Source: Rhynchopus sp. YZ270_cl-10
Lineage: Eukaryota
Assembly: GCA_964035575.1 (NCBI GenBank)
Contig: OZ037838.1
Location: 248,001-312,000, forward strand
Length of the DNA stretch: 64,000 bases
Direction of reading: 5' to 3'
The position numbers were made by a program, and so were the translations under genes. Under the pieces are notes generated by a model. The model made no database searches and was not told the origin of the DNA. It saw only the letters and a program-made list of their open reading frames with translations. Each line of letters opens with the position of its first letter. Position 1 is the stretch's first letter. Positions 7,148-62,708 of the stretch are shown here, piece by piece.

Positions 7148-8257
7148 TCACTCACTGTGTGGGTACAGATGTCTTGTCGCAATGTAGGTATCTTCTTCCG
7201 ATACCAGAACAACACGTGAACACGGTGATATCGCAAATGCCTCGCATTGCGGTATCTCACGCACACAGGACATGGTCGCCACATCATACTGGCGCAGGGG
7301 TATATTGTTATATTCATCTCTGTCTTCATCATAATCCTCTACCCTCACCACAAGGTACTTCCCACATGGTGTGAACTGCATGTCGACAGCCCCATCCACA
7401 TCAACACTGCGAAGAGCCGCACCACTCCAATCATAGAGGTGTACGCTCTTTTTAACCTGCACTGCAAAGACAGAAGCAGACCGTGAAAGCGCTACTACAC
7501 CGCACCACCCCCCCTCCAACGGTACACATGCAACAGCTTCACCTGTGTTCACATCCCACAGACGTGCGTTCCTCTCCCTGTTGGAGGAGGTGATCACCCA
7601 CCCACCACAGTCAGACACTGCCACCACACACCTTTCATGCGAGAGAGTGCGGAGCAACGTCAGGTCTTCGTCATACACAGAGACGCCGTCTGTGCCCTTC
7701 GAGACAACGACACTGCCGCACGCGAACACTGACTTCGAGGAGCCGTCGACTTTGCGGACCACCTCCCCACCCGGAAGTGCAACCTTGAGAAGGCAGTCCC
7801 AACACGCCAGGTAGCAGCGTGTCTTGCACTGCGAGATGGCAGGCGGACCGTGCACTTCATTGTCCACTTCAAACGAGAAGGCAGTGTTGAAGGTTTCTGT
7901 GTCGAAGCCGCCAACGTTCTCATCACAAAAATAGATGCAGAGCGTTCCACAACGCGACAGCGAGAACATTATCAAGCCCGCATCTTCACCCTCATATGTT
8001 GCAGTGTACTGAGCAGGACACTTGATGTCGGCAAAGCGGCGGGCAAGCACAACCTTCACCCCTGCATCAAACGCAGTGTCCTGCAGACGGCACGTCCCCT
8101 CCAGCACCTGCGTGCCGATGCGCATCTCGACAGACGCAGGCGAGACAGCAAGCGCCGTGCACGCAACCTCCTTTGCCGCTGCAACGTCCGCCTCGCACGG
8201 CACCTCCACTGTCGCAGTCACGCCGGACTCTTCCAGCACAAAGGTCACATCCATCAT
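7148..8257 (-). CDS. Ubiquitin-like domain + WD40/YVTN-like beta-propeller protein, copy 1
   Basis: N-terminal ~72 aa follow a ubiquitin-fold pattern with no di-Gly. Seven blade repeats follow (SLSRCG, AISQCK, AVSDCGG, RLWD, ALSRSAS, QFTPCGKYL, AISPCSR). Confidence 0.85.
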   Translation of the reverse strand: MMDVTFVLEESGVTATVEVPCEADVAAAKEVACTALAVSPASVEMRIGTQVLEGTCRLQDTAFDAGVKVVLARRFADIKCPAQYTATYEGEDAGLIMFSLSRCGTLCIYFCDENVGGFDTETFNTAFSFEVDNEVHGPPAISQCKTRCYLACWDCLLKVALPGGEVVRKVDGSSKSVFACGSVVVSKGTDGVSVYDEDLTLLRTLSHERCVVAVSDCGGWVITSSNRERNARLWDVNTGEAVACVPLEGGWCGVVALSRSASVFAVQVKKSVHLYDWSGAALRSVDVDGAVDMQFTPCGKYLVVRVEDYDEDRDEYNNIPLRQYDVATMSCVREIPQCEAFAISPCSRVVLVSEEDTYIATRHLYPHSE

Positions 8258-8521
8258 TGTTTCACAAGCTCTGTTGGTGTGGTGCAATTTAATGTTCTGT
8301 TGGGTGGACAGTTGAAGGAGCTGAGAGGGTGGACAAGAGGGGATGAGGGATGGGGGTCGTTGTTTTGGGCGGAGAACAATACATGCGAGACGAAAGTGTC
8401 TCCCGTGTCATACACATCGTTACTGATAAAACACCCATTTCAAAGAACAACCTAACCTCTCGTGCTTAGCCCTCTGTGAACTGCCTGCGAGGAGCTGCGC
8501 AAACGCCGCATCTCGCAATCA

Positions 8522-9625
8522 TCAGTAGGGGTACAGATGTCTCGTCACAATTGTAACCAAACCCGACTTCACAGCCACCGCACGTGAACACGGCGAGATC
8601 ACAAATGAAGAGGCACCAGCGACGTCGGAGAACACACGCACACAGGACATGGTCGCCACGTCATACTGGTGCAGTGAATGTTGTCGATGATCCCCCGCCA
8701 ACTGTACTACGAGATACTTCCCACACGGAGTGAATTTTATGCAAATAAAGGAAAGATTCTCCTGTTCAAAGCTGCCAAGAGCCGCACCACTCCAGTCATA
8801 GAGCTGCACTTTGTCAGAGTGCACGACAGCAAAGACGGAGGCACGCCGTGAAAGCGCCACATTCCTCCCAGTCGCAGGCACACATGCCACAGCTTCACCT
8901 GTGTTCACATCCCACAGACGTGCGTTCTTCTCAGTCCTCGAGGAGGTGATCATCCACCCACCACAGTCCGACACCACGAACCCACTGCACCCTTCGTGCG
9001 AGAGAGAGCGGAGCAACGTCAGGTTTTCGTCATACACACCACAGCTTCTTTGTCCACGGGAGACAACAACACCACCACACGCGAACACTGAGTACGAGGT
9101 GCCGTCGACTTTGCGGAGCACCTCCCCACCCGGAAGCGCAACCTTGGCAAGACAACGCATACTCGCCATGTAACAGCGTGTCTTGCACCGTGAGATTGCA
9201 AGCGCACCGCAGGCCCCAATGTCTACTTTGAACTCGAAGGCAGGGCTGAAGGTTTCTGTATCGAGGCCGGTCACATAGCCTGGATCCTGTGTAAAGAGAC
9301 AGAGTGCTCCACAAGGAGAGAGCGAAAAACGATTTATATCCATCCGTTGCCCACCAGTTGGCGCCTCTACACTGTACTCAGCAGGACACTTGATGTTGGC
9401 AAAGCGAGGACAGGCAAGCACAACCTGCACCCCTGCACCAAACGCAGTGTCCTGCAGACGGCACGTCTCCTCCAGCACCTGCGTGCCGATGCGCATCTCG
9501 ACAGACGCAGGCGAGACAGCAAGCGCCGTGCACGCAACCTCCTTTGCCGCTGCAACGTTCGCCTCGCACGGCACCTCCACTGTCGCAGTCACGCCTGACT
9601 CTTCCAGCACAAAGGTCACATCCAT
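8522..9625 (-). CDS. Ubl + beta-propeller protein, copy 2
   Basis: Same architecture; starts at the shared MDVTFVLEES. Confidence 0.85.
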   Translation of the reverse strand: MDVTFVLEESGVTATVEVPCEANVAAAKEVACTALAVSPASVEMRIGTQVLEETCRLQDTAFGAGVQVVLACPRFANIKCPAEYSVEAPTGGQRMDINRFSLSPCGALCLFTQDPGYVTGLDTETFSPAFEFKVDIGACGALAISRCKTRCYMASMRCLAKVALPGGEVLRKVDGTSYSVFACGGVVVSRGQRSCGVYDENLTLLRSLSHEGCSGFVVSDCGGWMITSSRTEKNARLWDVNTGEAVACVPATGRNVALSRRASVFAVVHSDKVQLYDWSGAALGSFEQENLSFICIKFTPCGKYLVVQLAGDHRQHSLHQYDVATMSCVRVFSDVAGASSFVISPCSRAVAVKSGLVTIVTRHLYPY

Positions 9626-24241: not shown

Positions 24242-25160
24242 TAGGGGGGGGGGGGGGGGGGGGGGGGGCAACAAATTACTCCAGCAATGGAATCAAGACC
24301 AAAAAAGAGACAATGAATCTTCCGCTAAAGCCAATAGGTGAATCGCAGTTGTTGCATTATCTACCACAACACACTATCATACGGTACAGCTGGCTTGAGG
24401 TACACCCCCAACCAGGCAAGCCCGACATAAGGCCAGCTATATTAGCACCGTCTAGTTCGGCGAGACAACACAACATAACAAAATAGCGCTAATCCGTTTT
24501 GCCAAGGTGCCAGACGGCCTCTGTAAGGCACTCTGAGCCCTAGACACATACACACGCCCCTCTCCCTCTTCACACACCCTTTTGGGAAGAAATCTACAAA
24601 ATAAAATAAAAAATCGGAGAAACGTCGTGCACCAATGACACCACACATTTTCCGGTAAAGGAAGAGGGAAGAGAAACTCCCTCAAAAAAAAGGTAGCTGT
24701 GATTGCCACCTTGACGTCGAACAAAAAAGTAGAGTTGAAGCAAAATGTTCAACATAAGACATATCGAAGAACGTATTGTATGTACCCACCCCCACCGCCC
24801 CTGTCCCCTTTTCCGCTATTGTCGCAAGCCAGGAAATTTCAATAAAAAAAGCATCGCTTCACAAATATCTTCTCCTTTATTGGCTTGGAAGGACCGAGAT
24901 TTCCCCCCCAAAAAAAAAAGAAAACGCTTATTCAGTAAAATGGCATTTGGGACGCAATTATACGGCCCGATTTATCCGAGAGAAGCGGATAGATGAATGC
25001 ATTATTAGCCCCTTCTTTCACACCTTTTTTTTTAAATCTGCTTGAGCATCGAACACCTGAAAAATGACGGTTTTTCTGAAAAAAAATTCAAAAAAAAAAA
25101 AAAAAAAAATACGTTCGGACCACCCATCACCCTCCCCTCACCCAACCTTCTTTTTCGTCA

Positions 25161-31528: not shown

Positions 31529-32656
31529 TCACTCACTGTTGTGTGGGTACAGATGTCTTGTCCTAATTGCGCCATCTCGTTCCATAGCCACAACAACACG
31601 TGAACACGGCGATATCGCAAACGCTCCGTCGGCATTTCGTATCACACGTACACAGGACATGGTCGCCACATCATACTGATGCAGGAAAAATTTCTCCTCA
31701 AAGGAACAGCCAGAAGAATTAGCCCAGGTGCCATGTATTTCCACAACCTGTACCCTTGCCACAAGGTACTTCCCACACGGGGTGAACTGCATGCCCTCGA
31801 CACCCCCACCCACATCAGCACTGCGAAGAGCCGCACCACTCCAATCATAGAGGCGTACACTGCTCTCGCTCCCCACAGCAAAGACAGAGTCAGACCGTGA
31901 AAGCGCCACTTCACACCACCCACCCACAGGCACACATGCCACAGCTTCACCTGTGTTCACATCCCACAGACGTACGTTGTCCTCACCGTAGGTAATCACC
32001 CACCCACCACAGTCCGACAGTGCCAGGTCCCTGCACTCTTCGTGCGAGAGAGAGCGGAGCAACGTCAAGTCTTCGTCATACACAGAGACGTTGTCTTCGC
32101 CCTTCGAGACAACAACACTGCCGCACGCGAACACTGTCTGTGGGATGTCGTCAGTCACTTTGCGGACCACCTCCCCACCCGGAAGTGCAACCTCGAGAAG
32201 GCAATCCTTGCATGCCATGTAGCAGCGTGTCTTGCAGCGCGAGATGGCAGGCGGACCGTACACTTCATTGTCCACTTTGAACGAGAAGACAGTGTTGAAG
32301 GTTTCTGTGTCGAAGCCACCGACGTTCCCACTCTCGTTACTGTGGACGCAGAGCGTTCCACAACGTGACAGCGTCAACGACGTCGCTTGCGGCTCTGCAG
32401 TGCACTCAGCAGGACACTTGATGTCGGCCAAGCGAGGACAGGCAAGCACAACCTGCACCCCTGCAGCAAACGCAGTGTCCTGCAGACGGCACGTCCCCTC
32501 CAGCACCTGCGTGCCGATGCGCATCTCGACTAACTCAGGCGAGACAGCAAGCGCCGTGCACGCAACCTCCTTTGCCGCTGCAACCTTCGCCTCGCACGGC
32601 ACCTCCACTGTCGCAGTCACGCCTGACTCTTCCAGCACAAAGGTCACATCCATCAT
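31529..32656 (-). CDS. Ubl + beta-propeller protein, copy 6
   Basis: Same architecture. Confidence 0.85.
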   Translation of the reverse strand: MMDVTFVLEESGVTATVEVPCEAKVAAAKEVACTALAVSPELVEMRIGTQVLEGTCRLQDTAFAAGVQVVLACPRLADIKCPAECTAEPQATSLTLSRCGTLCVHSNESGNVGGFDTETFNTVFSFKVDNEVYGPPAISRCKTRCYMACKDCLLEVALPGGEVVRKVTDDIPQTVFACGSVVVSKGEDNVSVYDEDLTLLRSLSHEECRDLALSDCGGWVITYGEDNVRLWDVNTGEAVACVPVGGWCEVALSRSDSVFAVGSESSVRLYDWSGAALRSADVGGGVEGMQFTPCGKYLVARVQVVEIHGTWANSSGCSFEEKFFLHQYDVATMSCVRVIRNADGAFAISPCSRVVVAMERDGAIRTRHLYPHNSE

Positions 32657-36738: not shown

Positions 36739-37707
36739 TTTTCTGGAGAATCAAAGAAAAGCTGAAAGATGATTTTGGCTCGAAAGCTTGACGGCGTAAA
36801 CCCCCTTCGAACGCCCACGGAGAGGGGTCAATATCGAAGTTGAAGCCCCCTTTCCTCTGTTGGCTTTGGATGGAAGGTTACCCCCTGTGGGGTGTTGGGC
36901 AACCTTGTGCGATGCTTCACTCCGATGACATATGTGCGCTATGTAGGCATTGGGGCAGGGTGGGGTGAATATGGGTATGAGATCAGATCTACAGTGTGTT
37001 GGCTGTGAGGGGTGAGGGGTGAGGAGTGTGCATGGGACAGCGCCAACGTCTACAGGAAGTAACTGAGTTGATATGTGGTTTCACCCTTGTCAGCCAACGG
37101 TGAAACCACAAATGGTGTGGCCGACAGCCCCAAAATAGCAGAAAATAGCAGAAAGTAGCACAAAAAATAGCACCCCCTTTCAGCCACACCAACAAGACCT
37201 CCAACAGAACGGCACAGAGTCAACACACAGACCGGCTCTGAGGGTGCGTAGTGCTTTTCTCTATGTCGGAAGAAGGCACATAAGCGAAATGCAGAAGAGA
37301 CAGAGGAGGCACCTTGTATGGTATTCTGCACTGTTGCTGCAGGCGTGGGTTGAGCAAAAAAACAGCAGTTTTTCAAAAAAAAACCTTCTCCCTTCTGGAG
37401 TTGCAGGACGGTCTAGCATACACCAACTGTCGTAGCATGGTTCTTCATGCTCGTTGGCTTCTTCGCATCGGTTCCACTAGATGCTCTGAATGCTCTGAAC
37501 CTCACGTCAAAACATAAATGTGGAGCAAAAAAACAGCACACATTGGGCTATCAGAAGCAATGGCTGTTTAAAAAGCCTTCAAAAAAAGTAGGGGCGGGGT
37601 GTACCTCTATTTATCTTATGCTGCCCTGCTTGGAGACGCTTCAAAAAGCACAGGGGAGGAGGAGGGGGGAGACAACGTGCGTTGCATTAACAAAAACGAA
37701 GCTGTGC

Positions 37708-37797: not shown

Positions 37798-38107
37798 GAG
37801 CGCAGGCATCGGCGTGCTCAATGGGGAAGGGGGGGGCATGCAGGGGGGGAGGTTCCCTGCACCCTCCGTGAAGAAGTGTAAGATAAAAGAGAAGTTTGAA
37901 CGATCAATGTACCGTTTTTTTTTGTACAAATCGAAACAGCCTGCAAAAAGGGGAGTGATTTGAACAAAGCATCATAAAAAACAAAAGGGGATGTACGGGG
38001 ATGAACAAAAAAACCCCAACATGAATACGTGTCATACGCACATCTTTCAACCCATTACACCCAAGAGACTTCGAGACCAACGCTACTCTCACCTTCTTTT
38101 TACGTCC

Positions 38108-44092: not shown

Positions 44093-44151
44093 CGTTCAGC
44101 AGACGTTCTGGTGAAGTCTGGGTTGTCTGGTGTTACAAAGGTTGGGAAGAG

Positions 44152-45065
44152 GGGTGATGGGTGATGGGTGATGGGTGATGGGTGATGGGTGATGGGTGAT
44201 GGGTGATGGGTGATGGGTGATGGGTGATGGGTGATGGGTGATGGGTGATGGGTGATGGGTGATGGGTGATGGGTGATGGGTGATGGGTGATGGGTGAGGG
44301 GTCTCTCGATATATATAAGAGCAAAAAGCAAAAAACGCAAATCCGAATAAAAAACCCTACCGCCCCAATCTTTTAATTTTTTGGCAAACACTATGCGAAG
44401 TTAACGTACGGAGGGTGAGACCGGGGAAACACGAGGTCTACGAGGTTTCCCCGGTCTCACCCTCCGTACGTTAACTTCGCATAGTGTTTGCCAAAAAATT
44501 AAAAGATTGGGGCGGTAGGGTTTTTTATTCGGATTTGCGTTTTTTGCTTTTTGCTCTTATATATATCGAGAGACCCCTCCCTAGTAAACTTGTTTAAGCA
44601 GCTCTGCTGCGTCTTGGGGGTCTCTCGATTATATATTTTTAGGCTTCGCGTCCTGCATGTTTATTGTCCACTTGCATCTGCAAGGTTGGAAGAGGGTAAC
44701 AGGGGAAACTTTAAAAATCATTCACTCACTCATCAGGATTTTTTGTGTTTCCCCGGTCTCACCCTCCGTACGTTGGTACGAATGATTTTTAATGAGTTTC
44801 CCCTGTTACCCTCTTCCAACCTTGCAGATGCAAGTGGACAATAAACATGCAGGACGCGAAGCCTAAAAATATATAATCGAGAGACCCCCAAGACGCAGCA
44901 GAGCTGCTTAAACAAGTTTACTAGGGATGGGTGATGGGTGATGGGTGATGGGTGATGGGTGATGGGTGATGGGTGATGGGTGATGGGTGATGGGTGATGG
45001 GTGATGGGTGATGGGTGATGGGTGATGGGTGATGGGTGATGGGTGATGGGTGATGGGTGATGGGT
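44152..45065. repeat. Two (GGGTGAT)~20 arrays flanking two adjacent palindromes (44296-44579, 44578-44927)
   Basis: Direct reading. The paralogous site at 21031 has a single GGGTGAT and no insert. Confidence 0.85.
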
Positions 45066-45295
45066 AAGTGGCAAAGATAGAGCTTCTTGTTTTGTAACTG
45101 TGAAGAAATGGGTAAGTGGATGTGGTTGGTGCCCGTGCACCTCAGACGAGGTGAAAGGGGAAGACCAAACAACTGAAAGGAAAAGCAAAACTGGAAAAAG
45201 AGAAAAGAGAAACACATTGAATCACGCAAACAAACACAAAGAACTCCAAACCCAAGGCACATGCCGCCGTCTCATGTTCACGTTCACGTTCACGG

Positions 45296-45820
45296 TCACG
45301 CCACCTCAACCTCAGGTGTGGGTGCTGCTGCTGCTGTGCTCTTCGTCATCCGCAGGGTCTGCACGTGCTCGTGGTGTGAGGACAGCCTCGCCAGACGCTG
45401 TGCACGCATGTCCGCACGACGTGCATCTGCACCTGCGTGTCTTGCAAGCATGCGGTCACGTGCCGCCTTCGTGCTCGGACGGTGCGCCTGCTTCACACGC
45501 TCGTGGTGTGCACCCACACGCGACAGCACAGCACTGCGCCTCTCCTCACGACGGATCTCCGCACCACACATCCGCTCCTGGTCCAGCACATTCCGCAGGC
45601 ACGTCTCATCCCTCCGCCTCACCTGCTTCACACGCTCGTGGTGTGCTGCCACACGTGCAACCACCGTGCTCTGTGCTGCCGCCCTCCGCTCCACAGCAGC
45701 ACGCCTCCGCGTGTCCGCACCCTCACGCGACACAAACCGCCCGTTGATGTTCTGCGGCTCCCACGCAGACGCAGTCATCCCTCCCTCAATCACAGTCACC
45801 GCAAAGGCAGACGACGGCAT
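45296..45820 (-). CDS. Stathmin-like protein, copy B
   Basis: Near-identical to copy A. Confidence 0.65.
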   Translation of the reverse strand: MPSSAFAVTVIEGGMTASAWEPQNINGRFVSREGADTRRRAAVERRAAAQSTVVARVAAHHERVKQVRRRDETCLRNVLDQERMCGAEIRREERRSAVLSRVGAHHERVKQAHRPSTKAARDRMLARHAGADARRADMRAQRLARLSSHHEHVQTLRMTKSTAAAAPTPEVEVA

Positions 45821-46416
45821 GTTGATGATGTCTTAACAAGTGTCAAATGTGCAACTGGACGTGGTGTGTGGTGTGTGGTGTTTGAAATCCTGTTTTGCCC
45901 CTCCTCCCCCCAATGAATGTTTGCGGGTCGACAATCACTGCTATGTGCAGGATCTGTACCCAATGTCGCAGGCAATTGTACTTAAAAGATATAAAAGGAA
46001 GGGGGTTTGAAAGTTTGTTTGTTTTGTTTCTATTTTTGCTGTTTGTTTGCTATTGCTACTCTGTTTGTATTGTAGTACTTTGTCAGTTGAGAGGTAGGTG
46101 CGCTTCTTTGTTGAGATAGCGACAACTCCTCTTAAGGTCTCACTACAAGCAAACATGTTTTTGAAAACGAAAAAAGGGGGAATCTTTTTTAAAAAATGCT
46201 CGAGAGACTCGTTCTCTTTGCTTGTTGCTCAAAAGACGATAAACGGGAGGGGGTAAAATAACGGTTGTTTGTTGTTCGCTTCCACTGGGTGTGGACTTTT
46301 TTTTTTTGTTTTTACACTGGTGAAATTACAGTGGTGAAAAACATAAAGTGGTCCCGTACATCAAAAAAGTTACGAAAACCAGTTCGTAGCACACTACTGG
46401 CAGAGCGCTCATCCTA

Positions 46417-48040: not shown

Positions 48041-49225
48041 TCACCATTCTTCCTCCCCCCCACTTCCCTCCCCTACACTGTCACATTGCTCAATAGAGTA
48101 CGGGTACAGATGCCTTGTCATAATGACGCCATCTGATGGCATAACCACAATAACACGTGAACACGGTGATATCGCAAATGCCCCATTCTCGGTTAGCGGC
48201 ATCTTGCTCACACAGGACATGGTTGCTACATCATACTGGTACAGGTATAGATTGTGCTCGTAGTAATAGCCATCAGGATCATAGGTGTCCTCATCATCCA
48301 TAAATACCGCAACATCTGCCGTCACCACAAGGTACTTCCCACACGGGGTGAACTGCATGCACTCCATATACCCACCCACATCAACACTGCGAAGAGCCGC
48401 ACCACTCCAATCATAGAGCTGCACGGTCTTTCCCTCCCCCACAGCAAAGACAGAGGCAGACCGTGAAAGCGCCACCTCCCAACATCTCTCCGCCCCCGGC
48501 ACACATGCCACAGCAACACCTGTGTTCACATCCCACAGACGTACGTTCTTCTTTTCGGAGGTGATCACCCACCCACCACAGTCAGACACTGCCAATCCCT
48601 TACGATCCTCGTGCGAGAGAGTGCGGAGCAACGTCAGGTCTTCGTCATACACAGAGACGCCGTTTTCAGACCCCGAGACAACGACATTGCCATGCGTCTG
48701 TAATGAACCCAAGAGGCCGTCTACTTTGCGGACCACCTCCCCACCCGGAAGCGCAACTTCGAGAAGACCTTCCGCCCAACATGGCAGGTAGCAGCGTGTC
48801 TTGCACTGCGAGATGGCAGGCCGACCGCATACCTCAATGTCTACTTTGAACGAGAAGACAGTGTCGAAGGTTTCTGTGTCGAAGCCGCCAACATGCCCAC
48901 TCCCGTCACCATACACGCAGAGCGTTCCACAACGCGAGAGTGACACGTTTATTGCTTCCTTCTGCAGGCTGTACTCAGCAGGACACTTAATGTCGGCCAA
49001 GCGAGGGCGGGCAAGCACAACCTGCACCCCTGCATCAAACGCAGTGTCCTGCAGACGGCACGTCCCCTCCAGCACCTGCGTGCCGATGCGCATCTCGACA
49101 GACGCAGGCGAGACAGCAAGCGCCGTGCACGCAACCTCCTTTGCCGCTGCAACGTCCGCCTCGCACGGCACCTCCACTGTCGCAGTCACGCCTGACTCTT
49201 CCAGCACAAAGGTCACATCCATCAT
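48041..49225 (-). CDS. Ubl + beta-propeller protein, copy 8
   Basis: Same architecture. Confidence 0.85.
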   Translation of the reverse strand: MMDVTFVLEESGVTATVEVPCEADVAAAKEVACTALAVSPASVEMRIGTQVLEGTCRLQDTAFDAGVQVVLARPRLADIKCPAEYSLQKEAINVSLSRCGTLCVYGDGSGHVGGFDTETFDTVFSFKVDIEVCGRPAISQCKTRCYLPCWAEGLLEVALPGGEVVRKVDGLLGSLQTHGNVVVSGSENGVSVYDEDLTLLRTLSHEDRKGLAVSDCGGWVITSEKKNVRLWDVNTGVAVACVPGAERCWEVALSRSASVFAVGEGKTVQLYDWSGAALRSVDVGGYMECMQFTPCGKYLVVTADVAVFMDDEDTYDPDGYYYEHNLYLYQYDVATMSCVSKMPLTENGAFAISPCSRVIVVMPSDGVIMTRHLYPYSIEQCDSVGEGSGGEEEW

Positions 49226-51346: not shown

Positions 51347-51580
51347 GAAAAAATAAATATGAAAACTTCTCTTGTTTTGTAACTGTGAAGAAATGGGTAA
51401 GTGGATGTGGTTGGTGCCCGTGCACCTCAGACGAGGTGAAAGGGGAAGACCAAACAACTGAAAGGAAAAGCAAAACTGGAAAAAGAGAAAAGAGAAACAC
51501 ATTGAATCACGCAAACAAACACAAAGAACTCCAAACCCAAGGCACATGCCGCCGTCTCATGTTCACGTTCACGTTCACGG

Positions 51581-52105
51581 TCACGCCACCTCAACCTCAG
51601 GTGTGGGTGCTGCTGCTGCTGTGCTCTTCGTCATCCGCAGGGTCTGCACGTGCTCGTGGTGTGAGGACAGCCTCGCCAGACGCTGTGCACGCATGTCCGC
51701 ACGACGTGCATCTGCACCTGCGTGTCTTGCAAGCATGCGGTCACGTGCCGCCTTCGTGCTCGGACGGTGCGCCTGCTTCACACGCTCGTGGTGTGCACCC
51801 ACACGCGACAGCACAGCACTGCGCCTCTCCTCACGACGGATCTCCGCACCACACATCCGCTCCTGGTCCAGCACATTCCGCAGGCACGTCTCATCCCTCC
51901 GCCTCACCTGCTTCACACGCTCGTGGTGTGCTGCCACACGTGCAACCACCGTGCTCTGTGCTGCCGCCCTCCGCTCCACAGCAGCACGCCTCCGCGTGTC
52001 CGCACCCTCACGCGACACAAACCGCCCGTTGATGTTCCGCGGCTCCCACGCAGACGCAGTCATCCCTCCCTCAATCACAGTCACCGCAGAGGCAGACGAC
52101 GGCAT
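51581..52105 (-). CDS. Stathmin-like protein, copy C
   Basis: Near-identical to copies A and B; the downstream cassette is truncated at ~51371. Confidence 0.65.
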   Translation of the reverse strand: MPSSASAVTVIEGGMTASAWEPRNINGRFVSREGADTRRRAAVERRAAAQSTVVARVAAHHERVKQVRRRDETCLRNVLDQERMCGAEIRREERRSAVLSRVGAHHERVKQAHRPSTKAARDRMLARHAGADARRADMRAQRLARLSSHHEHVQTLRMTKSTAAAAPTPEVEVA

Positions 52106-53277
52106 GTTGATGATGTCTTAACAAGTGTCAAATGTGCAACTGGATGTGGTGTGTGGTGTGTGGTGGTACCAACTACTCCATAAACGCTGTGCAATGAAAT
52201 CTAAACGCCCCTTTTTTTTATGTATCTATCTTGTGACCTTGCTTTCTTAAGAACACTGTTGGGTCTGAACCTGAACCGCTCAAGACCACCCACGATGTGG
52301 CACAACACTTGAACAAAATGGGAAAAATAAATTTAAAGAATTCTATATCTACGACAGGGGTCTTGGAGGGTAAAGAAGGCGTGGGGAGTGAAAGACTGCA
52401 AAGGCTTCCCAGCAGACGTGGGTTCTTTGTCTACTAGAGACTTAAGCAAAAGTTGCAACGAAAGCACAATGAATGGAAGACAAACAAACCGGCTCGACAC
52501 ACCTCCTGCTGAAGCAGGGGTGTGTACTGCATTGCATATCAACCAGATACTGCAAATTTCATAGCAATCTTAACGCACAGAAGAGTAGGAAAGAAAAGTT
52601 GAAAGTGCAAACACCTCACCGTTCATCGGCGGACTATAGATTATAAGGCACTGTTTAAAAAAAAAGTATTTTCATTCAAAAAAAAATAAAAAAGAGAGAG
52701 CGTAAGACGTTACCGCCGCATGCCTCACTCTTACTACTCTATGAACGTCGATCGCAGCTATACAACACTTTTACTTGAGGACATTTTCTTGAACGTTTGT
52801 TTGTTTTTGTTTGTTTGTTTGCTGTTGTGACCATACCCTTGGTGGGTGAAGAAGACTAAAATCCTCAACAGGTCGAAGCACTTCTTTGTACTACAGAAGG
52901 CACAGACAGAGCTCGCCCTCAACCTTTTTAGAACAACAAACAGCACGAACAAACCTTTGAGTAGTCCTCACGCGCCCTTCTTTCTTTTTTTTTTTGTTAA
53001 CAAATCTAGCGGGAGAGGGCGGAATGGGAAAAGGGAAACAAAATGATTAGACCAGGTTATACCAGGTTTCCTGCATCACATATATTGCTCAACAAGGGGG
53101 TTAAATAGAAAAAAAGTGGTAAACAAAAATCGTTGGTTCTCCCTGCATTGCTTTTATCTTTTGTTTTTTTTTCCCCCCGAAAAAAGTACTGTAGTTTGGT
53201 CGCTCAAAGGGGGGGAGGAGGGGAGGTTTTAAAAGGGAATCTACAATATTTCCCACCCCATCTCTCCACTCGTGCCT

Positions 53278-53316
<39 letters not shown>

Positions 53317-53720
53317 ACACGCTTTAGCGGAGCAGCTTCGCTGCGTGTTGGGAGATCTTTGATAGAGACTACCGTCCTTTTGATTTGACATGGCACGCAC
53401 ACTGCTATTTGGCAGAATATTTATTTGATTTTCCTCAGGCTTTGTCCTGGTTGGCCGGGGTCCGTTTATGTTTCAGTCTCTACCCTCACCAAATCACCAC
53501 ACCATCTTCATCAGATTTTTTGTTGGAATTTGTTTTGGGTTGTTTCGGCTTCCACATTCGCCCCCCTCATCTTTTTGTTCCCCCACACACGATTCTTCGC
53601 TTCGCATCCATCTTCTCGTCCCCTTCCAAGCCACCTAGACGTCTCGGTAGTGTGCAGCCTGCTGGGACATATACACCACCTTCGACTCCGCCTTCTCCAC
53701 CCAGTGCACCCCTCGACGCT

Positions 53721-54974
53721 ATGGCCACAGCACACATCACCGATTGTGCTACGCTGTTGGCGGCGTTCGAGGCGCAGACGACGAGCCAGCACGACTGGTC
53801 GCCTCCGGATGCGGCCCTGCGTGCGCTGGGCGTGGAAGAGGGCTCCCCTGCGCTGGTGGGACGCAAGATCCAGTTCGCGGATCTGGCGCGGACGATGCGG
53901 GCCCTGGATAAGGAAGTCGCCCGCCACACCGGCGTCCAGGGGCCAGGGCAGGTGACGCGGTTGGCGATTGTGTCCGCCATCCTCGTCCTCCTCAAGGCGG
54001 AGGTGACGGAGGCGAACAGCGCGATGTTCTCAGAGGGCCAGCGCATGTCCCTCACGCGCCTGGTCGGCACCCTCACGGTGCTGTCCACGGTGCTGGGGGA
54101 CCCCGAGACCCGGTCCCGCCTCAGCGGTTCCCGCCCCCCCGCCACCACCGCCGAGACGCCGGTTTTGCCTCAACGTGAGGACAGCCCGGAGGCGTCCATC
54201 CCGCGCGAGCAGCAGCCGCAGCAGCCGCAGCAGACGCAGCCGGCGGCGGACAACGCGCGGATCGCGCAGCTGGAGGCTGCGATGATGGAGTTGGCGGCAG
54301 CGAAGCGGGAGGGGGACGCGCGGCACGAGCTCCTGTGCCAGCAGCTCAACGCGGTCAGGGACGGTGGTGCGCCTCCTCCGGCAGCTGCAGCATCGGACTT
54401 CCTGGCGCAGTTACGGGCGGCGATCGGCACCGGGGCAGCGGCGCCTATGCAGGTGGAACAGCCGGTTATGGGGACGGACGTGGACGTGGTGGCACGCAAC
54501 CCGAGACACTGGGTGGATTTTTGCGCCGACGCCGACCACTGCGCCGACGCTCTGGTGCAGGCCCTGAAGAGGCGCCTGCCTACCGAGGCCGGCGACGCGC
54601 AGGACGGGGCCCGCTTCGCCGTTGATGTGGTGGGTCTGTTGCTGCAGCAAGCTCCCTTGGAGGCGGTGCTGAGAAAGCTCGATGACAGTATCTCCTTCTG
54701 GCAGTTGAGGGCGAGTTGTGGGAGGTCGGGTGCGGTCGCCTTCCGCGACAAGGTCTGGACGGCGGATGTCGTGCCGAAGGACCGGCAGGCGGCGGTGGCG
54801 GCGGCGCACGCAGCAGGGCGTGGTGCGAAGTCCGGGCACGGGGGTGGCCGGGCCGGGCAGGCGTACGGGGGTGGCAACGGGGGGGGCCAGGCCGCGCAGC
54901 CGTACGCGCCGGGAAACGGTGGTGGCAGAGGCCGAGGCGGGGGAGGGCATTGGCGCGGTGGTCAACGCAAGTGA
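53721..54974 (+). CDS. Retrotransposon ORF1 (gag-like, 417 aa)
   Basis: First ORF after repeat A1, from the ATG at 53721. Helical/coiled-coil region and RGG-rich C-terminus. Gag role inferred from position. Confidence 0.7.
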   Translation: MATAHITDCATLLAAFEAQTTSQHDWSPPDAALRALGVEEGSPALVGRKIQFADLARTMRALDKEVARHTGVQGPGQVTRLAIVSAILVLLKAEVTEANSAMFSEGQRMSLTRLVGTLTVLSTVLGDPETRSRLSGSRPPATTAETPVLPQREDSPEASIPREQQPQQPQQTQPAADNARIAQLEAAMMELAAAKREGDARHELLCQQLNAVRDGGAPPPAAAASDFLAQLRAAIGTGAAAPMQVEQPVMGTDVDVVARNPRHWVDFCADADHCADALVQALKRRLPTEAGDAQDGARFAVDVVGLLLQQAPLEAVLRKLDDSISFWQLRASCGRSGAVAFRDKVWTADVVPKDRQAAVAAAHAAGRGAKSGHGGGRAGQAYGGGNGGGQAAQPYAPGNGGGRGRGGGGHWRGGQRK

Positions 54975-55109
54975 CGAGAGCAGGCGGTAGCGCGCGTTAC
55001 GCTCTCCCTCCCACCACCCTCCCCCCCCTCTCCCCCCCCTCTTGTTTTTTCTTCCCCCCCCCCACGGCCCTCCCCGCCAAAACACACATCCGCCGAGTTT
55101 TCTTCCGAA

Positions 55110-56105
55110 ATGCTGCTTCAGGCTTTGCACAAGCCGAAGAAGGGTCTCGGGGTGGCGAGGAGGAAGGAGGTGGACGACTGCGTGTTCCGCCTCCGCGACG
55201 GCAAGCAGGCCGCGCGCGCTTTGGCCCATCTTGTCCCGTGGGACCAAGCGCACACTTTCGACGTGGGGCCCCGAGCAGCAGGCACCCGCGACTGGCTGCT
55301 CCGAGCGTTCCGGCAGTTCGCCGAAGGGGAGACCGAGACCACGCCTCCCGACCAGACGTTGATTCGGTTCGTCTGGGGTCGCCTGCGCGGAGCGTCGCCC
55401 CTCTCCGTGGCCGACTACTGCGGGCGGCTGCTGAAGGCACTGGCGGCCGAGGGGGAGACGGGATACCGCACGCGCCGGGTGCTGGCGGTGAAGCGCGCGC
55501 TGACGCGTTTCGGGACGTTGCTGAGGCCGAGTCAGGCGCCGCCGGTAGACGTGGACGCGGTGATGGACGTGGTCGAGGCTTTCGGTCGCGAGGGGGCCGA
55601 GCGCGAACGGGCGTTTGTGGCCTTGGTGTGGATGGCACGGGCGCGTATGGCGGACGCACGATACCTGCTGGTGCGCGACCTGGTGGAGGTGACCGACGAG
55701 GGCGCGACGGGGCTGGAAGTCGCCCTGAAGGAGAAGCAGCAGAAGAGCTGGACACCCGTGGTGTATTTGCCACCCGGGACGCTTACCCAATACGTGGTGG
55801 AATGGGCACGCGCGCGTCGCTTGGCGGAAGGACAGGACGCGCCGTTGTTTGCAGTGACCGAGACGCAGTACCAGCGCCTCATGCGTCGGGTGGTGGGGGC
55901 TCTGCCGGCAGGGTCCTGGGCGCACTCGCTTCGCAGGGGGTCAGCGCAGGCCCTGCAATCCTGGGGGATGAGCGTGGACGGACTGAGGGACGCGCTGCGC
56001 CACGCGTCATCCAGAACGACGGTGCGTTACCTCATGCGTACGGCGCCCGAGGCTCGCAGGAAGGCACGCTCGACGCTGGACGTCCTGCAGGAGCGGCCGC
56101 TGTAG
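55110..56105 (+). CDS. Tyrosine recombinase
   Basis: Catalytic set: R (ARMAD), K (LKEK), HSLR, LRH and Y (TTVRY). Confidence 0.92.
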   Translation: MLLQALHKPKKGLGVARRKEVDDCVFRLRDGKQAARALAHLVPWDQAHTFDVGPRAAGTRDWLLRAFRQFAEGETETTPPDQTLIRFVWGRLRGASPLSVADYCGRLLKALAAEGETGYRTRRVLAVKRALTRFGTLLRPSQAPPVDVDAVMDVVEAFGREGAERERAFVALVWMARARMADARYLLVRDLVEVTDEGATGLEVALKEKQQKSWTPVVYLPPGTLTQYVVEWARARRLAEGQDAPLFAVTETQYQRLMRRVVGALPAGSWAHSLRRGSAQALQSWGMSVDGLRDALRHASSRTTVRYLMRTAPEARRKARSTLDVLQERPL

Positions 56106-57811
56106 GTTGGTTGTTCCGGGGGTTGGACGGGTACCCGTTGGGGGAGTATGTGCGTGACGAGGGGGATGACGTGGTGGAGGCGGATGTTGAGACGTCTGCG
56201 GCGCCTCCACATGTGCTCTTGGATGATGTCGCTGGGGTCTGGGGTGGCCCATCTGGGGTGAAGCGGCAGGTGCTTGACTCATTCCCGGCGGGTCTGATTG
56301 ATTTGGGGGCGCTCCGCCGACTGGTACCGGCGAAGGCCAGGTTGTTCGCAATGCTTGACGACATTGCGACTTTCCGTGCGCAGCTGACGGGGTCTGGGGT
56401 GTCGATGCCGGGCCCGCCCTCCAAGCTCCAGGACGGCATGTTGGCGGCGTGCGTGGGTAGTGGGATTTTGCGCACGGAGAAGCGAGCTTTCCCGTCGGTG
56501 TGTGGGCTGTCTGTGTTTCCGCTGGCGAAGACGAACGGCAAGATGCGTCTCATCGTTGACGCACGGCCGTTGAACACGGCGATGCACTCCCCGCCAAAGT
56601 TCAGCCTCCCTACACCATACGAGCTGTCGGAACTCATCCTACGCGGGGGCGCTACGCATGCAGTCGTGGCGGATTTTAAAGGGTTTTTCTGGCAATTCCC
56701 TTTATCCGCGGAGGTGGGGCAGTTTTTTGGTGTGCGGCAGGGTGCGCGTCGCATGCAGCTTACCCGCATGGCGATGGGGTGGTCGTGGGCGGCGGTGATT
56801 GCGCAGGAGACGTCGCTGGGGCTTCTCGGGGATATGGCGGGTGTGTGTGCTGCTGCGTGGATAGACGACAACCTCATTTTGGGGAAGTCGGCGGGTGAGG
56901 CGTCTGCGCGGCTTCGGGGGTTCCTGCGCAGAGCGGACGAAGTTGGCGCTGAGGTGAACCGCGAGAAGTCGACGCTCACTCCGGTACAGGTGTGTACCTA
57001 CGCAGGGATTGAGTGGGATTTGCGGGGGCGCAGAATGCGGCTGCCGGGGGAGTGGCGTCGGAAGGCCCGTGTCGTGATGGACGTATTGCTGTCGGCGTCG
57101 GGTCCCTCGCTGCGCGAAGTGTGGAAAGGTATCGGGGCCGTCATCTGGGCGACGTATGCGATGGGGGACCGGTTCTGCGGGGTGCCGGACATGTTGGCGT
57201 GGATTCGTGCGCGGGGCGCCGAGGTGTCTGCGGGCGCGATTGACTGGGACGACCAGGTGCAGATCTCTGCGGGCATGCGGACGGACTTGCGTGTGTTTGT
57301 GGAGCGGCGATTGGTGCCGGATGTGTGGCGCGTCCCCAGGTGGAAGCTGTCGCCGGAGGAGGGGTGTGACACGGTGGTGTGGTCGGACGCGTGCCCCGAG
57401 GGGTGGGGGTTTATTGTGCGGACGCTTGCTGGCGGGCGCGCTTTCAGGAAGTGGGGCACGTGGTCCACGGTCGAGGATATTTTCATTTTGGAGTTGCGGG
57501 CGATGGCCTGGGGCGTGCTGCATGCTGTACGTGGTGGCGCCCGCAGGATTTTGGTGGTGGGGGACAACGCCGCGGTGGTTGCTGTGCTGGAGAAGGGCCA
57601 CTGTGCAGTCAGGTTAGGGAACACGGTCTTGGAGCGCCTGTTTCGGGTCACTGACGGGGCGGGTGCGGGCATGTTGTCGCGCTGGATCGCGACGGACCGT
57701 ATGCCGGCGGACGAGCTGTCGCGCTGGGGTACCGCTGGGCAGGACTGGGCCGACCCCCCGTCGGACGGCGTGGTGGTCGACGGTGGCGGTTTTATGTGGT
57801 CGGACGAGTGA
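55802..57811 (+). CDS. Reverse transcriptase / RNase H (start uncertain; frame open from 54716)
   Basis: RT motifs KMRLIVDARPLN, ADFKGFFWQFPL, RMAMGW, WIDD, VNREKS and YAGIEWD. RNase H motifs WSDACPEGWG, IFILELRA, GDNAAVV and ADELSR. Confidence 0.92.
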   Translation: MGTRASLGGRTGRAVVCSDRDAVPAPHASGGGGSAGRVLGALASQGVSAGPAILGDERGRTEGRAAPRVIQNDGALPHAYGARGSQEGTLDAGRPAGAAAVGWLFRGLDGYPLGEYVRDEGDDVVEADVETSAAPPHVLLDDVAGVWGGPSGVKRQVLDSFPAGLIDLGALRRLVPAKARLFAMLDDIATFRAQLTGSGVSMPGPPSKLQDGMLAACVGSGILRTEKRAFPSVCGLSVFPLAKTNGKMRLIVDARPLNTAMHSPPKFSLPTPYELSELILRGGATHAVVADFKGFFWQFPLSAEVGQFFGVRQGARRMQLTRMAMGWSWAAVIAQETSLGLLGDMAGVCAAAWIDDNLILGKSAGEASARLRGFLRRADEVGAEVNREKSTLTPVQVCTYAGIEWDLRGRRMRLPGEWRRKARVVMDVLLSASGPSLREVWKGIGAVIWATYAMGDRFCGVPDMLAWIRARGAEVSAGAIDWDDQVQISAGMRTDLRVFVERRLVPDVWRVPRWKLSPEEGCDTVVWSDACPEGWGFIVRTLAGGRAFRKWGTWSTVEDIFILELRAMAWGVLHAVRGGARRILVVGDNAAVVAVLEKGHCAVRLGNTVLERLFRVTDGAGAGMLSRWIATDRMPADELSRWGTAGQDWADPPSDGVVVDGGGFMWSDE

Positions 57812-58603
57812 TGTCCTTAGATTATTCTTATTTTAGATTGCCTTCTGTTTTTTCTTCCAGCTTTTCATTAAAGCTGTTTCCCTGCCCTGTTTTTTGTCCG
57901 CTGTTTTTTTTTTGCAGTGGCTTTTGGTTTTATTTCTGGATGCCTGCGCCCGCTGAGGCTTGGTGTCGTATCATTGGTTTTTTGTTCACTCCGCCTTTTT
58001 TCTGGGCCCTCGGGGGTCCTGTGTTTTTGTTTGTAGTTGGGATGGATGCTCTCGTGGCCTACGGGTTTAAATATTCTACGTGACGGTGTCAGGAGGTTGT
58101 TTCGGCTTCCACATTCGCCCCCCTCATCGTAGCGCCTATTTCGAGATAAAAGTATCCCCCTTCCCTCCTCTCCGTTTTCATCATTGCTGTTCGCCCTTCG
58201 CGGGTCTTTTAGGTACTCTCTATCTATCTCAGATCTCCCTGAAACACGCTTTAGCGGAGCAGCTTCGCTGCGTGTTGGGAGATCTTTGATAGAGACTACC
58301 GTCCTTTTGATTTGACATGGCACGCACACTGCTATTTGGCAGAATATTTATTTGATTTTCCTCAGGCTTTGTCCTGGTTGGCCGGGGTCCGTTTATGTTT
58401 CAGTCTCTACCCTCACCAAATCACCACACCATCTTCATCAGATTTTTTGTTGGAATTTGTTTTGGGTTGTTTCGGCTTCCACATTCGCCCCCCTCATCGT
58501 AGCGCCTATTTCGAGATAAAAGTATCCCCCTTCCCTCCTCTCCGTTTTCATCATTGCTGTTCGCCCTTCGCGGGTCTTTTAGGTACTCTCTATCTATCTC
58601 AGA

Positions 58604-58677
<74 letters not shown>

Positions 58678-59150: not shown

Positions 59151-59195
59151 TTGCCACATTCAAGCTATTGTAGTAGTGCTCCGGGAGGGGTCGAT

Positions 59196-59433: not shown

Positions 59434-59788
59434 CAGGGACTTTATACACACCCCCCCTGATATTGACAGGTCGTTGACCGACTTCCGAAAGCACCATACC
59501 GTTTTTTTCTTGAAAACATGGTTGTATTAGTGTAGCCACCCTAGAGTGTGCTCCACTCTTCTTTATTATTGTGGATGACAAGAAAAAATTAGCATACTTT
59601 TTTTTTTTTGGATAGGGTTGTGGATCGCTGTTTGAAAACTTTAGTTTTGCATCAGTGTATGAACACCCGAGGATGACCACTCTACTCCCCCCCACCTCTC
59701 TCTGCCTCACTCCCATTTATCTACTCAATTTTTTTTTCCCCCCATTTTTTTGTAATCTATACACCACTTCCCCTCTTTGTTTTCTCCT

Positions 59789-61222: not shown

Positions 61223-61616
61223 CGTGTGTGGGTTCGGGGGGGGGTTTGGGGGTTCTGGGAGGTGGGTTGTGAGAGGTGGGGGAGGTGAGGTGGCCCCCCT
61301 GGGACGCCCCCAAAATTCTACTAGGGCCTTTTCATAGGTTTTCTTGCTGTTGAAATGTTTTGAAGTGATCTTTCAAACAAAAGAAACCCAGGTCAGGACA
61401 GAGTACGTGCAGGAAAACCACCGCCTGTCAGCAAGGCAGAGGTTCTGTGTGTCACCCGAAAGGAAAAGGGAAAAGGGAAAAGGGGTAAACCGTTCTTTTT
61501 TCTGTTTTTCTTTTTTTGTTGTGTCAACAATCTGCTATGTGCAGGATCTGTACTCAATGTCGTAGGAAGGCAGTTCATAAAAGATAAAAAGTGGGAGAGT
61601 GTCCACTGGTCACACA

Positions 61617-62708
61617 TCACTCACTGTTGTGTGGGTACAGATGCCGTGTTACAATATCGCCATCTCGTTGCATAGCCACAACAACACGTGAACACGGCGA
61701 TATCACAAAGGATTCCCAGGAGGAGACTGAGACTGGCGGTATCACATGCACACAGGACATGGTCGACACATCATACTGGTGCAGGTGTACATTCCAATCA
61801 TCATCAGGTACCCTTGCCACAAGGTACTTCCCACACGGGGTGAACTGCATGCCCTTCTGAACATGCCCACCCACACGAGCACTGCGAAGAGCCGCACCAC
61901 TCCAATCAAAGAGGTGCACTCTGCCAGAGCCCGCCACAGCAAAGACAGAGGCAGACCGTGAAAGCGCCAATTCACACCACAACTCATGCACACATGCCAC
62001 AGCAACACCTGTGTTCACATCCCACAGACGTACGTCCGTACCACATGTTTCGGAGGAGGTGATCACCCACCCACCACAGTCCGACACTGCCGCGTCCCTG
62101 CACACCTCGTGTGAGAGAGTGCGGAGCAACGTCAGGTCTTCGTCATACACAGAGACGCCGTCTTTGCCCTTCGAGACAACAACATTGTCACACGCGAACA
62201 CTTTGAACGAGGGGCCATCAATTTTGCGGACCACCTCCCCACCCGGAAGCGCAACCTCGAGAAGCCAATCCCCACACGCCAAGTAGCAGCGTGTCTTGCA
62301 CTGCGAGATGGCAGGCGCAGGGACCACTTTAGTGTCCACTTCAAACGAGAAGACAGTGTCGAAGGTTTCTGTGTCGAAGCCAACAACATTCGCACCATCA
62401 GCATAGACGCAGAGCGTTCCACAACGCGACAGCGACAAGCATTCTGCGCACACACTGTACTCAGCAGGACACTTGATGTCAGCAAAGCGGCGGGCAAGCA
62501 CAACCTGCACCCCTGCATCAAACGCAGTGTCCTGCAGACGGCACGTCCCCTCCAGCACCTGCGTGCCGATGCGCATCTCGACAGACGCAGGCGAGACAGC
62601 AAGCGCCGTGCACGCAACCTCCTTTGCCGCTGCAACGTCCGCCTCGCACGGCACCTCCACTGTCGCAGTCACGCCTGACTCTTCCAGCACAAAGGTCACA
62701 TCCATCAT
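61617..62708 (-). CDS. Ubl + beta-propeller protein, copy 9
   Basis: Same architecture. Confidence 0.85.
   Translation of the reverse strand: MMDVTFVLEESGVTATVEVPCEADVAAAKEVACTALAVSPASVEMRIGTQVLEGTCRLQDTAFDAGVQVVLARRFADIKCPAEYSVCAECLSLSRCGTLCVYADGANVVGFDTETFDTVFSFEVDTKVVPAPAISQCKTRCYLACGDWLLEVALPGGEVVRKIDGPSFKVFACDNVVVSKGKDGVSVYDEDLTLLRTLSHEVCRDAAVSDCGGWVITSSETCGTDVRLWDVNTGVAVACVHELWCELALSRSASVFAVAGSGRVHLFDWSGAALRSARVGGHVQKGMQFTPCGKYLVARVPDDDWNVHLHQYDVSTMSCVHVIPPVSVSSWESFVISPCSRVVVAMQRDGDIVTRHLYPHNSE

What the first reader, a model, noticed from the sequence alone, without database searches (positions are those of the whole stretch)
7148..62708. Candidate diversified receptor repertoire: constant Ubl domain + beta-propeller hypervariable on one face
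Seen: nine paralogs share an almost nucleotide-identical ~72-aa ubiquitin-like domain. They also share near-invariant alternate turns (S(R/P)CG, DTET, SQCK, LPGG, DEDL, SDCG, DVNTG, SRSA, DWSG, TPCG, DVATM, SPCS). The intervening loops differ in sequence and length between copies; one loop reads EDYDEDRDEYNNIP / AGDHRQHS / EVEEYVDGEDAP / QVVEIHGTWANSSGCSFEEKFF / SDNAYNAN / PDDDWNVH. Known: D-A and B-C loops form the top ligand-binding face of WD40 propellers, and N-terminal Ubl domains often dock on the proteasome, p97 or E3 complexes. Inference: an antibody-like cytosolic system coupling variable target recognition (viral, endosymbiont or TE proteins) to a fixed degradation handle. I know of no described family with this architecture and pattern.
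Basis: partly seen in the sequence, partly recalled or inferred. Interest (0 to 1): 0.9.

Follow-up and report, generated by a model that had tools for sequence, protein, structure and literature searches.

The report
Shuffled Ubl-propeller receptor repertoire in protist
A single-celled eukaryote (likely a diplonemid flagellate) carries nine copies here, and over a hundred close relatives in the protein database, of a protein with a near-constant ubiquitin-like domain and a propeller whose one face changes fast under positive selection and appears to be reshuffled between copies, which likely makes it a repertoire of inside-the-cell receptors for foreign proteins.

Summary
Nine intronless paralogs (eight intact, one frameshifted) encode a ubiquitin-fold domain plus a seven-bladed WD40 propeller (pLDDT 92, Z 29.5). 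At least 120 further family proteins are 67-77% identical, none sharing a 90% cluster. In 124 aligned proteins the D-A/B-C (top) loops average 2.45 bits of entropy against 0.27 for A-B/C-D loops; only top loops vary much in length (one 4-31 aa), and they are acidic. Codon models give omega about 5-8 at about 15% of sites, 26 of 26 on the top half; the signal shrinks but survives indel masking, multi-hit and synonymous-rate controls. New here: markers are unlinked between copies, and the Ubl is identical even at synonymous sites (2/62 vs 46/112), pointing to gene conversion. No RNA evidence was available. Best reading: a conflict-driven intracellular receptor/adaptor repertoire, working like nematode F-box or fungal HNWD genes but belonging to neither; target and partner unknown.

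The parts
7148..8257 (-). g1: intact Ubl + 7-blade WD40 gene, 369 aa
8522..9625 (-). g2: intact paralog, 367 aa, head-to-tail with g1
13174..14364 (-). g3: intact paralog, 396 aa, with an 11-12 residue insertion in the fifth B-C loop that resembles a duplicated strand
14653..15744 (-). g4: intact paralog, 363 aa; shares about 110 bp of 5' flank with g3
16728..17877 (-). g5: paralog frameshifted within the fourth D-A loop (near 17110); its second D-A loop holds a g4-type and a g6-like loop version in tandem
31529..32656 (-). g6: intact paralog, 375 aa
46417..47649 (-). g7: intact paralog, 410 aa with C-terminal extension; shares a near-identical tract (codons about 112-160) with g9
48041..49225 (-). 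g8: intact paralog, 394 aa
61617..62708 (-). g9 (= P0001): intact paralog, 363 aa, used as reference
62493..62705 (-). Ubl domain of g9 (codons 2-72); near DNA-identical in all copies; acidic (net -8); no I44 patch, no di-glycine
61641..62468 (-). Seven-blade WD40 propeller of g9 (codons 81-356); 14 hypervariable D-A/B-C loops, 13 near-invariant A-B/C-D turns

Best explanation
These genes are a large, positively selected family of Ubl + WD40 proteins whose copies appear to exchange sequence, and they likely act as intracellular receptor/adaptors that bind foreign proteins on the variable top face and hand them to one shared host partner through the constant Ubl and bottom face. Shown: fold, one-face variability, omega above 1 on that face, unlinked markers between copies, synonymous identity of the Ubl, clustering of many copies on two contigs. 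Inferred: (a) the repertoire is built in the germ line by tandem duplication, gene conversion and unequal crossover, loop indels and selection; the Ubl is the only long stretch free of variable loops, so it is homogenised most; (b) cytosolic or nuclear location (no signal peptide, the protein starts with the Ubl; no clear membrane segment); (c) targets are likely basic proteins, as the top loops are net acidic in nearly all rows; viruses, intracellular bacteria or mobile elements are the likely source; (d) the partner is likely a removal machine (AAA ATPase, ligase or proteasome) engaged through a non-canonical Ubl surface, as with Rsa4/Ytm1 or Ddi1, not through the I44 patch.
For: Fold: profile of 10 N-terminal domains hits ubiquitin-fold chains, best single-domain E=1.4e-6, gap-free alignment to ubiquitin 8-70; Pfam ubiquitin in 4 of 10 and Rad60-SLD in 3 of 10 members; model pLDDT 92.1, pTM 0.84; propeller Z 29.5, rmsd 2.5 over 274 residues. 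Selection on 258 gap-free propeller codons of 8 genes: M2a vs M1a 2dL=206, M8 vs M8a 205, omega 7.7 at 14.5% of sites, 26 of 26 sites with posterior above 0.9 on the top half; bottom strands omega 0.37 (p=7e-7); top loops omega 1.69 with their own synonymous rate (p=0.002). With codons near indels masked, multi-nucleotide hits and synonymous-rate variation together: 2dL=11.9, omega 4.4. Neutral simulation with a new tree for every four codons reached 1.69 in 5 of 210 runs. Exchange: blade-to-blade distance correlations -0.11 to 0.21, r2 about 0.01 beyond 5 residues; all 55 of 55 marker pairs show four combinations; g5 carries two loop versions in tandem; synonymous variation 2/62 Ubl vs 46/112 propeller codons, p=1e-8. 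Top loops net positive in only 2 of 124. Family size: 120 of 120 listed hits at 67% identity or more, each a one-member 90% cluster; 83 on a 2.71-Mb and 30 on the 457-kb contig (my tally).
Against: No target, partner or transcript is shown. dN/dS rests on 8 genes and my own codon code; strictest masking leaves few top-loop codons and at distance 5 the picked sites spread to the bottom half (7 of 17 with multi-hit). Within the 8 genes the Ubl shows no protein-level purifying selection (syn 0.030, nonsyn 0.058), and in the most distant relatives it is no better kept than the propeller's bottom half (16-42% vs 30-42%), so the constant-handle step is weaker than it looks. Unlinked markers could partly reflect a star-like burst with recurrent change; only about 3 of 28 pairwise tract tests reach p of 0.002 or less. 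The 120 proteins were the best scorers to one query, a biased sample. Two adenylate cyclase paralogs in the window show the same constant/variable split, so homogenisation is a general habit of this genome. The lineage is inferred, not shown.
Confidence: 0.55

Rival explanations
1. One reading: the Ubl is a canonical proteasome/p97 docking handle (Rad23/Dsk2-like) and bound targets are degraded directly.
For: Ubiquitin fold at the N-terminus; the pattern matches F-box and MATH-BTB adaptors as quoted in PMC4334554; Ddi1 shows that an acidic, atypical Ubl can still dock on Rpn1 (PMC11012796, passages).
Against: L8/R42/I44/V70 positions read E/E/R/A in nearly all 124 rows; no UBA, F-box, BTB, RING or U-box hit in the 8 window proteins.
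Confidence: 0.15
2. The proteins are offensive or symbiont-managing factors used against prey, hosts or resident bacteria, diversified by the other party's counter-evolution.
For: Positive selection fits either side of a conflict; parasitic and predatory behaviour and endosymbionts are reported in diplonemids (10.64898/2026.01.29.702485, passages).
Against: No signal peptide; maximum 19-residue hydropathy median 1.38; no enzymatic effector domain.
Confidence: 0.1
3. Self/non-self or mating-type recognition, as with the fungal HNWD genes, where the ligand is a polymorphic protein of the same species.
For: Same loops (D-A and B-C) are selected in HET-D/E, with sequence exchange between loci (PMC1805685, abstract and section 10).
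Against: No NACHT or cell-death domain; hundreds of paralogs rather than many alleles at few loci.
Confidence: 0.08
4. KRAB-zinc-finger-like silencing adaptors (family recalled, not searched): the propeller reads transposon proteins or chromatin marks and a SUMO-like domain recruits silencing machinery.
For: Rad60-SLD hits in 3 of 10 N-terminal domains; acidic top loops suit basic nucleic-acid-binding proteins; an intact-looking tyrosine-recombinase retroelement lies among the copies.
Against: Acidic loops argue against direct DNA binding; adjacency to a transposon is no evidence of targeting.
Confidence: 0.07
5. Neutral or selfish amplification: loops vary because they are unconstrained and the rest is homogenised by conversion.
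For: High synonymous rate in top loops (1.9 vs 0.4-0.7); truncated or frameshifted relatives are common (1 of 9 in the window; only 6 of 34 near-family representatives have both ends).
Against: omega above 1 under all controls; 8 of 9 frames intact despite many in-frame loop indels; omega 0.37 in bottom strands; 5' flanks differ and no terminal repeats bound the genes.
Confidence: 0.05

Closest known systems
Podospora HNWD / het-d, het-e WD40 receptors (PMC1805685; abstract and section 10 read)
   Same: WD40 propeller with positively selected residues in the D-A loop and B-C turn (top face); sequence exchange between family members.
   Different: HNWD are NACHT-type NLRs with near-identical repeats in a 10-member family; here there is no NACHT or death domain, blades differ from each other, loops also vary in length (4-31 aa), and there are over a hundred paralogs with an N-terminal Ubl.
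Nematode F-box and MATH-BTB ubiquitin-ligase adaptors (seen only as quoted in the Discussion of PMC4334554)
   Same: Conserved adaptor domain plus substrate-binding domain under positive selection, birth-death evolution, proposed detection of foreign proteins.
   Different: No F-box or BTB domain here; constant part is a Ubl homogenised at DNA level; link to a cullin is untested.
Rsa4/NLE1 and Ytm1/WDR12 (PMC8122580 and PMC6624252, passages)
   Same: N-terminal integral Ubl followed by a WD40 domain; the Ubl docks an AAA ATPase through a non-I44 acidic residue.
   Different: Those are conserved essential ribosome-assembly factors; no Pfam NLE hit here, and this family is multi-copy and hypervariable.
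UBL shuttle factors Rad23/Dsk2/Ddi1 (PMC11012796, passages)
   Same: N-terminal Ubl; acidic beta-sheet as in Ddi1.
   Different: No UBA or RVP domain; canonical hydrophobic patch replaced by E/R/A.
Giant-virus BTB-WD40 families (fold hits)
   Same: Expanded adaptor + propeller families; similar propeller fold.
   Different: Viral, BTB instead of Ubl, 7-16% identity; shared fold only.

Membership tests
WD40 seven-bladed beta-propeller | Seven four-stranded blades with N-terminal closing strand | tested here: met
   secondary structure; Z 29.5, rmsd 2.5, 274 residues to G-beta
Integral ubiquitin-like domain | Beta-grasp fold homologous to ubiquitin | tested here: met
   (via distant members; the window's own domain alone hits nothing), pLDDT 81-94 over residues 1-80; no separate fold search of this domain
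Ubiquitin-like modifier (cleavable) | Di-glycine at the end of the domain | tested here: not met
   No GG after the last strand in the window copies or the 120 relatives
UBL shuttle factors (Rad23/Dsk2) | L8/I44/V70-type hydrophobic patch | tested here: not met
   E/R/A in 123/124/121 of 124 rows
UBL shuttle factors (Rad23/Dsk2) | UBA domain | tested here: not met
   No hit in 8 of 8 window proteins; no room in the model
UBL shuttle factors (Rad23/Dsk2) | Binding to Rpn1/Rpn10/Rpn13 | not testable with these tools
Rsa4/NLE1 - Ytm1/WDR12 | N-terminal Ubl + WD40 architecture | tested here: met
   PMC8122580
Rsa4/NLE1 - Ytm1/WDR12 | NLE-type Ubl (Pfam NLE) | tested here: inconclusive
   Not among 12 families hit by 10 N-terminal domains at E up to 5, but the window's own domain hits no Ubl family either
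Rsa4/NLE1 - Ytm1/WDR12 | Conserved MIDAS-binding glutamate | not tested
   No alignment to Rsa4/Ytm1 was obtained
Rsa4/NLE1 - Ytm1/WDR12 | Conserved, low-copy housekeeping gene | tested here: not met
   At least 120 paralog-like proteins, no named orthologs
Fungal HNWD NLRs | NACHT domain and N-terminal effector domain | tested here: not met
Fungal HNWD NLRs | Positive selection in D-A and B-C loops | tested here: met
Fungal HNWD NLRs | Sequence exchange between family members | tested here: met
   (between genes; not between blades of one gene)
F-box / BTB ligase adaptors | F-box or BTB domain | tested here: not met
F-box / BTB ligase adaptors | Constant adaptor plus positively selected recognition domain | tested here: met
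Diversity-generating retroelement or deaminase hypermutation | Adenine-specific or C/G-transition-specific change in variable regions | tested here: not met
   Change rates in the top half A 0.26, C 0.22, G 0.25, T 0.18; all 12 substitution types present
Antibody-like somatic diversification | Cell-to-cell rearrangement or mutation | not testable with these tools
   Only contigs were available

The most novel reading that the evidence does not exclude
A unicellular euglenozoan runs a cytosolic immune repertoire of several hundred to over a thousand Ubl-propeller receptors: fourteen CDR-like loops on one face are recombined between paralogs as a shared gene pool, a homogenised Ubl anchors the exchange and docks all receptors on one removal machine, and captured viral or bacterial proteins are eliminated without target-specific E3 ligases.
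Probability: 0.25. Interest if true: 0.92.

Novelty: new variant of a known kind. Interest (0 to 1): 0.74.

Why it matters
How free-living protists detect intracellular invaders is largely open. This family gives a concrete, testable candidate: a small single-exon scaffold, over a hundred naturally varied binding faces, strong positive selection and signs of constant shuffling between copies. It would be an independent route to the 'variable reader + constant handle' design of F-box adaptors and HNWD receptors, with a different handle. The natural loop library (length 4-31 aa tolerated on a fixed propeller) is also of interest as a binding scaffold.

Tried and rejected
No whole genome is held, so no genome-wide count or flank analysis. 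Expression: no RNA holder listed; one run guessed as RNA (X12) gave 10 and 4 short pieces and did not cover the single-copy neighbour; no conclusion drawn. Strain polymorphism: runs X1, X2 and X5 showed no other letters in the listed single-copy pieces of 32830-36800, so they look like the same genotype and give no independent alleles. Summed contig depth over the Ubl was about 1100-1850 times single-copy depth in those three runs; the tool says this is no copy number, so it is a hint only. Joints to 31995 and 32626 with GATC-like inserts look like adapter artefacts (my reading). First model from 8 sequences left the Ubl below pLDDT 50; single-sequence PDB search of the Ubl found nothing. RNA structure as cause of Ubl DNA conservation: z=-0.86, rejected. 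Profile search with distant members found only generic WD40 proteins plus three family members; among the best 150 representatives no long protein carried this Ubl with another domain. The CSE1 search gave no named relative. Earlier scan findings: none. Literature: searches found no paper on such a family; 'WD40' and 'ubiquitin' do not occur in the main text of PMC10161547 or 10.64898/2026.01.29.702485; their supplements were not seen and could list it among expanded families. The primary F-box paper was not held.
Full report
Observation. A six-frame search and tblastn give nine minus-strand, single-exon copies between 7148 and 62708, 59-76% identical; eight are intact (363-410 aa) and one (16728-17877) is frameshifted near 17110. 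The first 72 codons are on average 98.3% identical in DNA (minimum 95.8%). The 5' flanks fall into several unrelated types and no terminal repeats bound the genes. In lower-depth run X4, pieces of 112-162 bases match g1 and g2 coding sequence with no other letters, which argues against assembly chimeras at those places.

Host. No genome was held. Neighbours include CSE1 in three coding pieces, a Stealth/LNR gene in two pieces, a cyclic-nucleotide-gated channel and two membrane adenylate cyclases. The cyclase's best solved relatives are the GRESAG 4 receptor-type cyclases (E=1e-24, next best 1e-6), which I recall as trypanosome proteins. With introns present and the genes examined on one strand, I infer a euglenozoan, likely a diplonemid. 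This is inference; the CSE1 search returned no named relative.

Structure. Pfam gives only sub-threshold WD40-type hits for the window proteins. A model from 42 aligned family members has mean pLDDT 92.1 and pTM 0.84, with a beta-beta-alpha-beta-beta N-terminal domain and a propeller; the best structural match is G-beta, Z 29.5, rmsd 2.5 over 274 residues. Strand order gives seven blades closed by residues 82-84. A profile of ten N-terminal domains aligns without gaps to ubiquitin 8-70 (best single-domain chain E=1.4e-6); four of ten members hit Pfam ubiquitin and three Rad60-SLD. By that alignment the positions of ubiquitin L8, R42, I44, H68 and V70 are E, E, R, V and A in 123, 122, 124, 124 and 121 of 124 rows. 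The canonical hydrophobic surface (L8, I44, V70 in PMC11012796) is therefore absent; the domain has net charge -8 and no terminal di-glycine.

Family. The homolog search scored 420 proteins at E up to 0.001; the 120 listed are all 67% or more identical to g9, unnamed, and each is a one-member 90% cluster; by my tally 83 lie on a contig of 2,712,987 bases, 30 on the window's 456,684-base contig, 7 on four others. I did not see the other 300, which may include generic WD40 proteins, and I cannot show that all contigs belong to one assembly. The profile search added about 34 near-family representatives, many truncated (6 of 34 have both ends), and six distant relatives at 25-30% identity, five with a clear Ubl; all other hits were generic WD40 proteins by length and matched region. 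A tree of 22 proteins puts the expanded group in one supported clade with an unresolved interior.

One-face variability. In 124 proteins (8 window genes plus 116 others) mean entropy is 0.12 bits in the Ubl, 0.27 in A-B/C-D turns, 0.40 in bottom strand halves, 1.33 in top strand halves and 2.45 in D-A/B-C loops. Bottom turns keep one length (a single exception in 13 x 124); all 14 top loops vary, the sixth B-C loop from 4 to 31 residues with 121 distinct sequences. The top loops are net acidic: median -9, positive in 2 of 124. PMC1805685 (section 10) identifies the D-A loop and B-C turn as the top interaction platform.

Selection. On 258 gap-free propeller codons of the eight intact genes, M2a beats M1a by 2dL=206 and M8 beats M8a by 205, with omega 7.7 at 14.5% of sites; all 26 sites with posterior above 0.9 are on the top half (19 loop, 7 strand). 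Bottom strands have omega 0.37 (p=7e-7), bottom turns 0.60 (p=0.12), top loops 1.69 with their own synonymous rate (p=0.002). The signal falls with stricter controls but stays: 38 with indel masking plus multi-hit, 11.9 with synonymous-rate variation added; at the widest masking few top-loop codons remain and picked sites scatter. Neutral simulations with a new tree every four codons reached 1.69 in 5 of 210 runs. The substitution spectrum in the top half is flat across bases, so neither adenine-directed nor deaminase-type hypermutation is indicated. These models are my own implementation on eight sequences.

Exchange between copies. Distances in different blades are almost uncorrelated (-0.11 to 0.21) and r2 between 56 two-state sites is about 0.01 beyond five residues. 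All 55 pairs of 11 mid-frequency markers, including indels, show all four combinations; the highest r2 (0.15) is for two markers two residues apart. g7 and g9 share a tract around codons 112-132 (p=0.001 uncorrected; 3 of 28 pairs reach p of 0.002 or less). g5 carries a g4-type and a g6-like version of one loop in tandem, as an unequal crossover would leave. Synonymous variation is seen at 2 of 62 amino-acid-invariant Ubl codons but 46 of 112 elsewhere (p=1e-8), and it rises from 31% to 56% towards the variable loops, apart from a bin of three codons. Fitted synonymous rates are 0.03 (Ubl), 0.43-0.73 (bottom), 1.2-1.9 (top). This is the pattern described for paralogs under gene conversion, with peaks of divergence at selected sites (PMC3924837, passages). 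RNA structure does not explain it. The Ubl is the only long run without variable loops, so I infer it is converted most often. It follows that its constancy is not by itself proof of a fixed partner: omega in it is not below 1, and in distant relatives it is no better kept than the bottom of the propeller, though it is better kept in mid-distance ones (65-90% vs 60-79%).

How it likely works. Each copy would present a different acidic, loop-rich top face in the cytosol or nucleus (no signal peptide; median maximum hydropathy 1.38), bind a foreign, likely basic protein, and pass it through the constant Ubl and bottom face to a common host partner. Known integral Ubls dock without the I44 patch: Rsa4 and Ytm1 bind the Rea1 MIDAS domain through an acidic residue (PMC8122580, PMC6624252, passages) and Ddi1 has an acidic sheet that binds ubiquitin and Rpn1 (PMC11012796, passages). 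A removal machine is thus still my best guess for the partner, but it is a guess. Rivals are listed with their odds. Nothing here shows expression, targets or partner.

Comparison and novelty. It works like nematode F-box/MATH-BTB adaptors (seen only as quoted in PMC4334554) and evolves like Podospora HNWD propellers (PMC1805685), but lacks their defining domains. It shares the architecture of Rsa4/Ytm1, so the architecture is not new; a hypervariable, recombining multi-gene family of that architecture was not found in searches or in the main text of two diplonemid genome papers (supplements not seen). I rate it a new variant of a known kind, interest 0.74.

Noticed in passing
window:53290-58610 (+): Tyrosine-recombinase retroelement with apparently intact gag-like, integrase-family (54975-56102) and RT/RNase H (54686-57808) frames and split direct repeats (53292-53571 = 58216-58498; 58095-58240 = 58465-58610).
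   Followed up: partly
window:18857-20962 and 42008-44095 (-): Two membrane adenylate cyclase paralogs: the first 200 codons differ strongly (90 amino-acid, 39 synonymous differences) while the catalytic part is almost identical; same variable-sensor/homogenised-constant pattern as the Ubl-WD40 genes.
   Followed up: partly
window:39231-41324 (-): Open frame joining tandem ankyrin repeats to a duplicated CSE1 C-terminal segment (copy of 25145-26679 at 38091-39611).
   Followed up: no
window:3335-4357, 22165-23356, 44296-44932: Long inverted repeats or palindromes (350 bp arms at 98%; a 1.2-kb palindrome at 96%), possibly non-autonomous DNA transposons.
   Followed up: no
window:21028-21853, 45052-45880, 51370-52168: An 800-bp element in three copies at 98-99.6% identity.
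   Followed up: no
A-B turns of all copies (g9 residues 96, 137, 173, 211, 292, 339): Six near-invariant cysteines sit at the same turn position on the conserved face; several are kept in distant relatives. Metal binding, acylation or redox role unexplained.
   Followed up: no
protein list: All 120 listed family proteins are one-member 90% clusters: no near-identical recent duplicates, unusual for a family this large.
   Followed up: partly
window:59792-61372 (-) and 407-2811 (-): Single-copy kelch-propeller gene next to g9, and a Stealth/LNR (GlcNAc-phosphotransferase-like) gene in two pieces.
   Followed up: no
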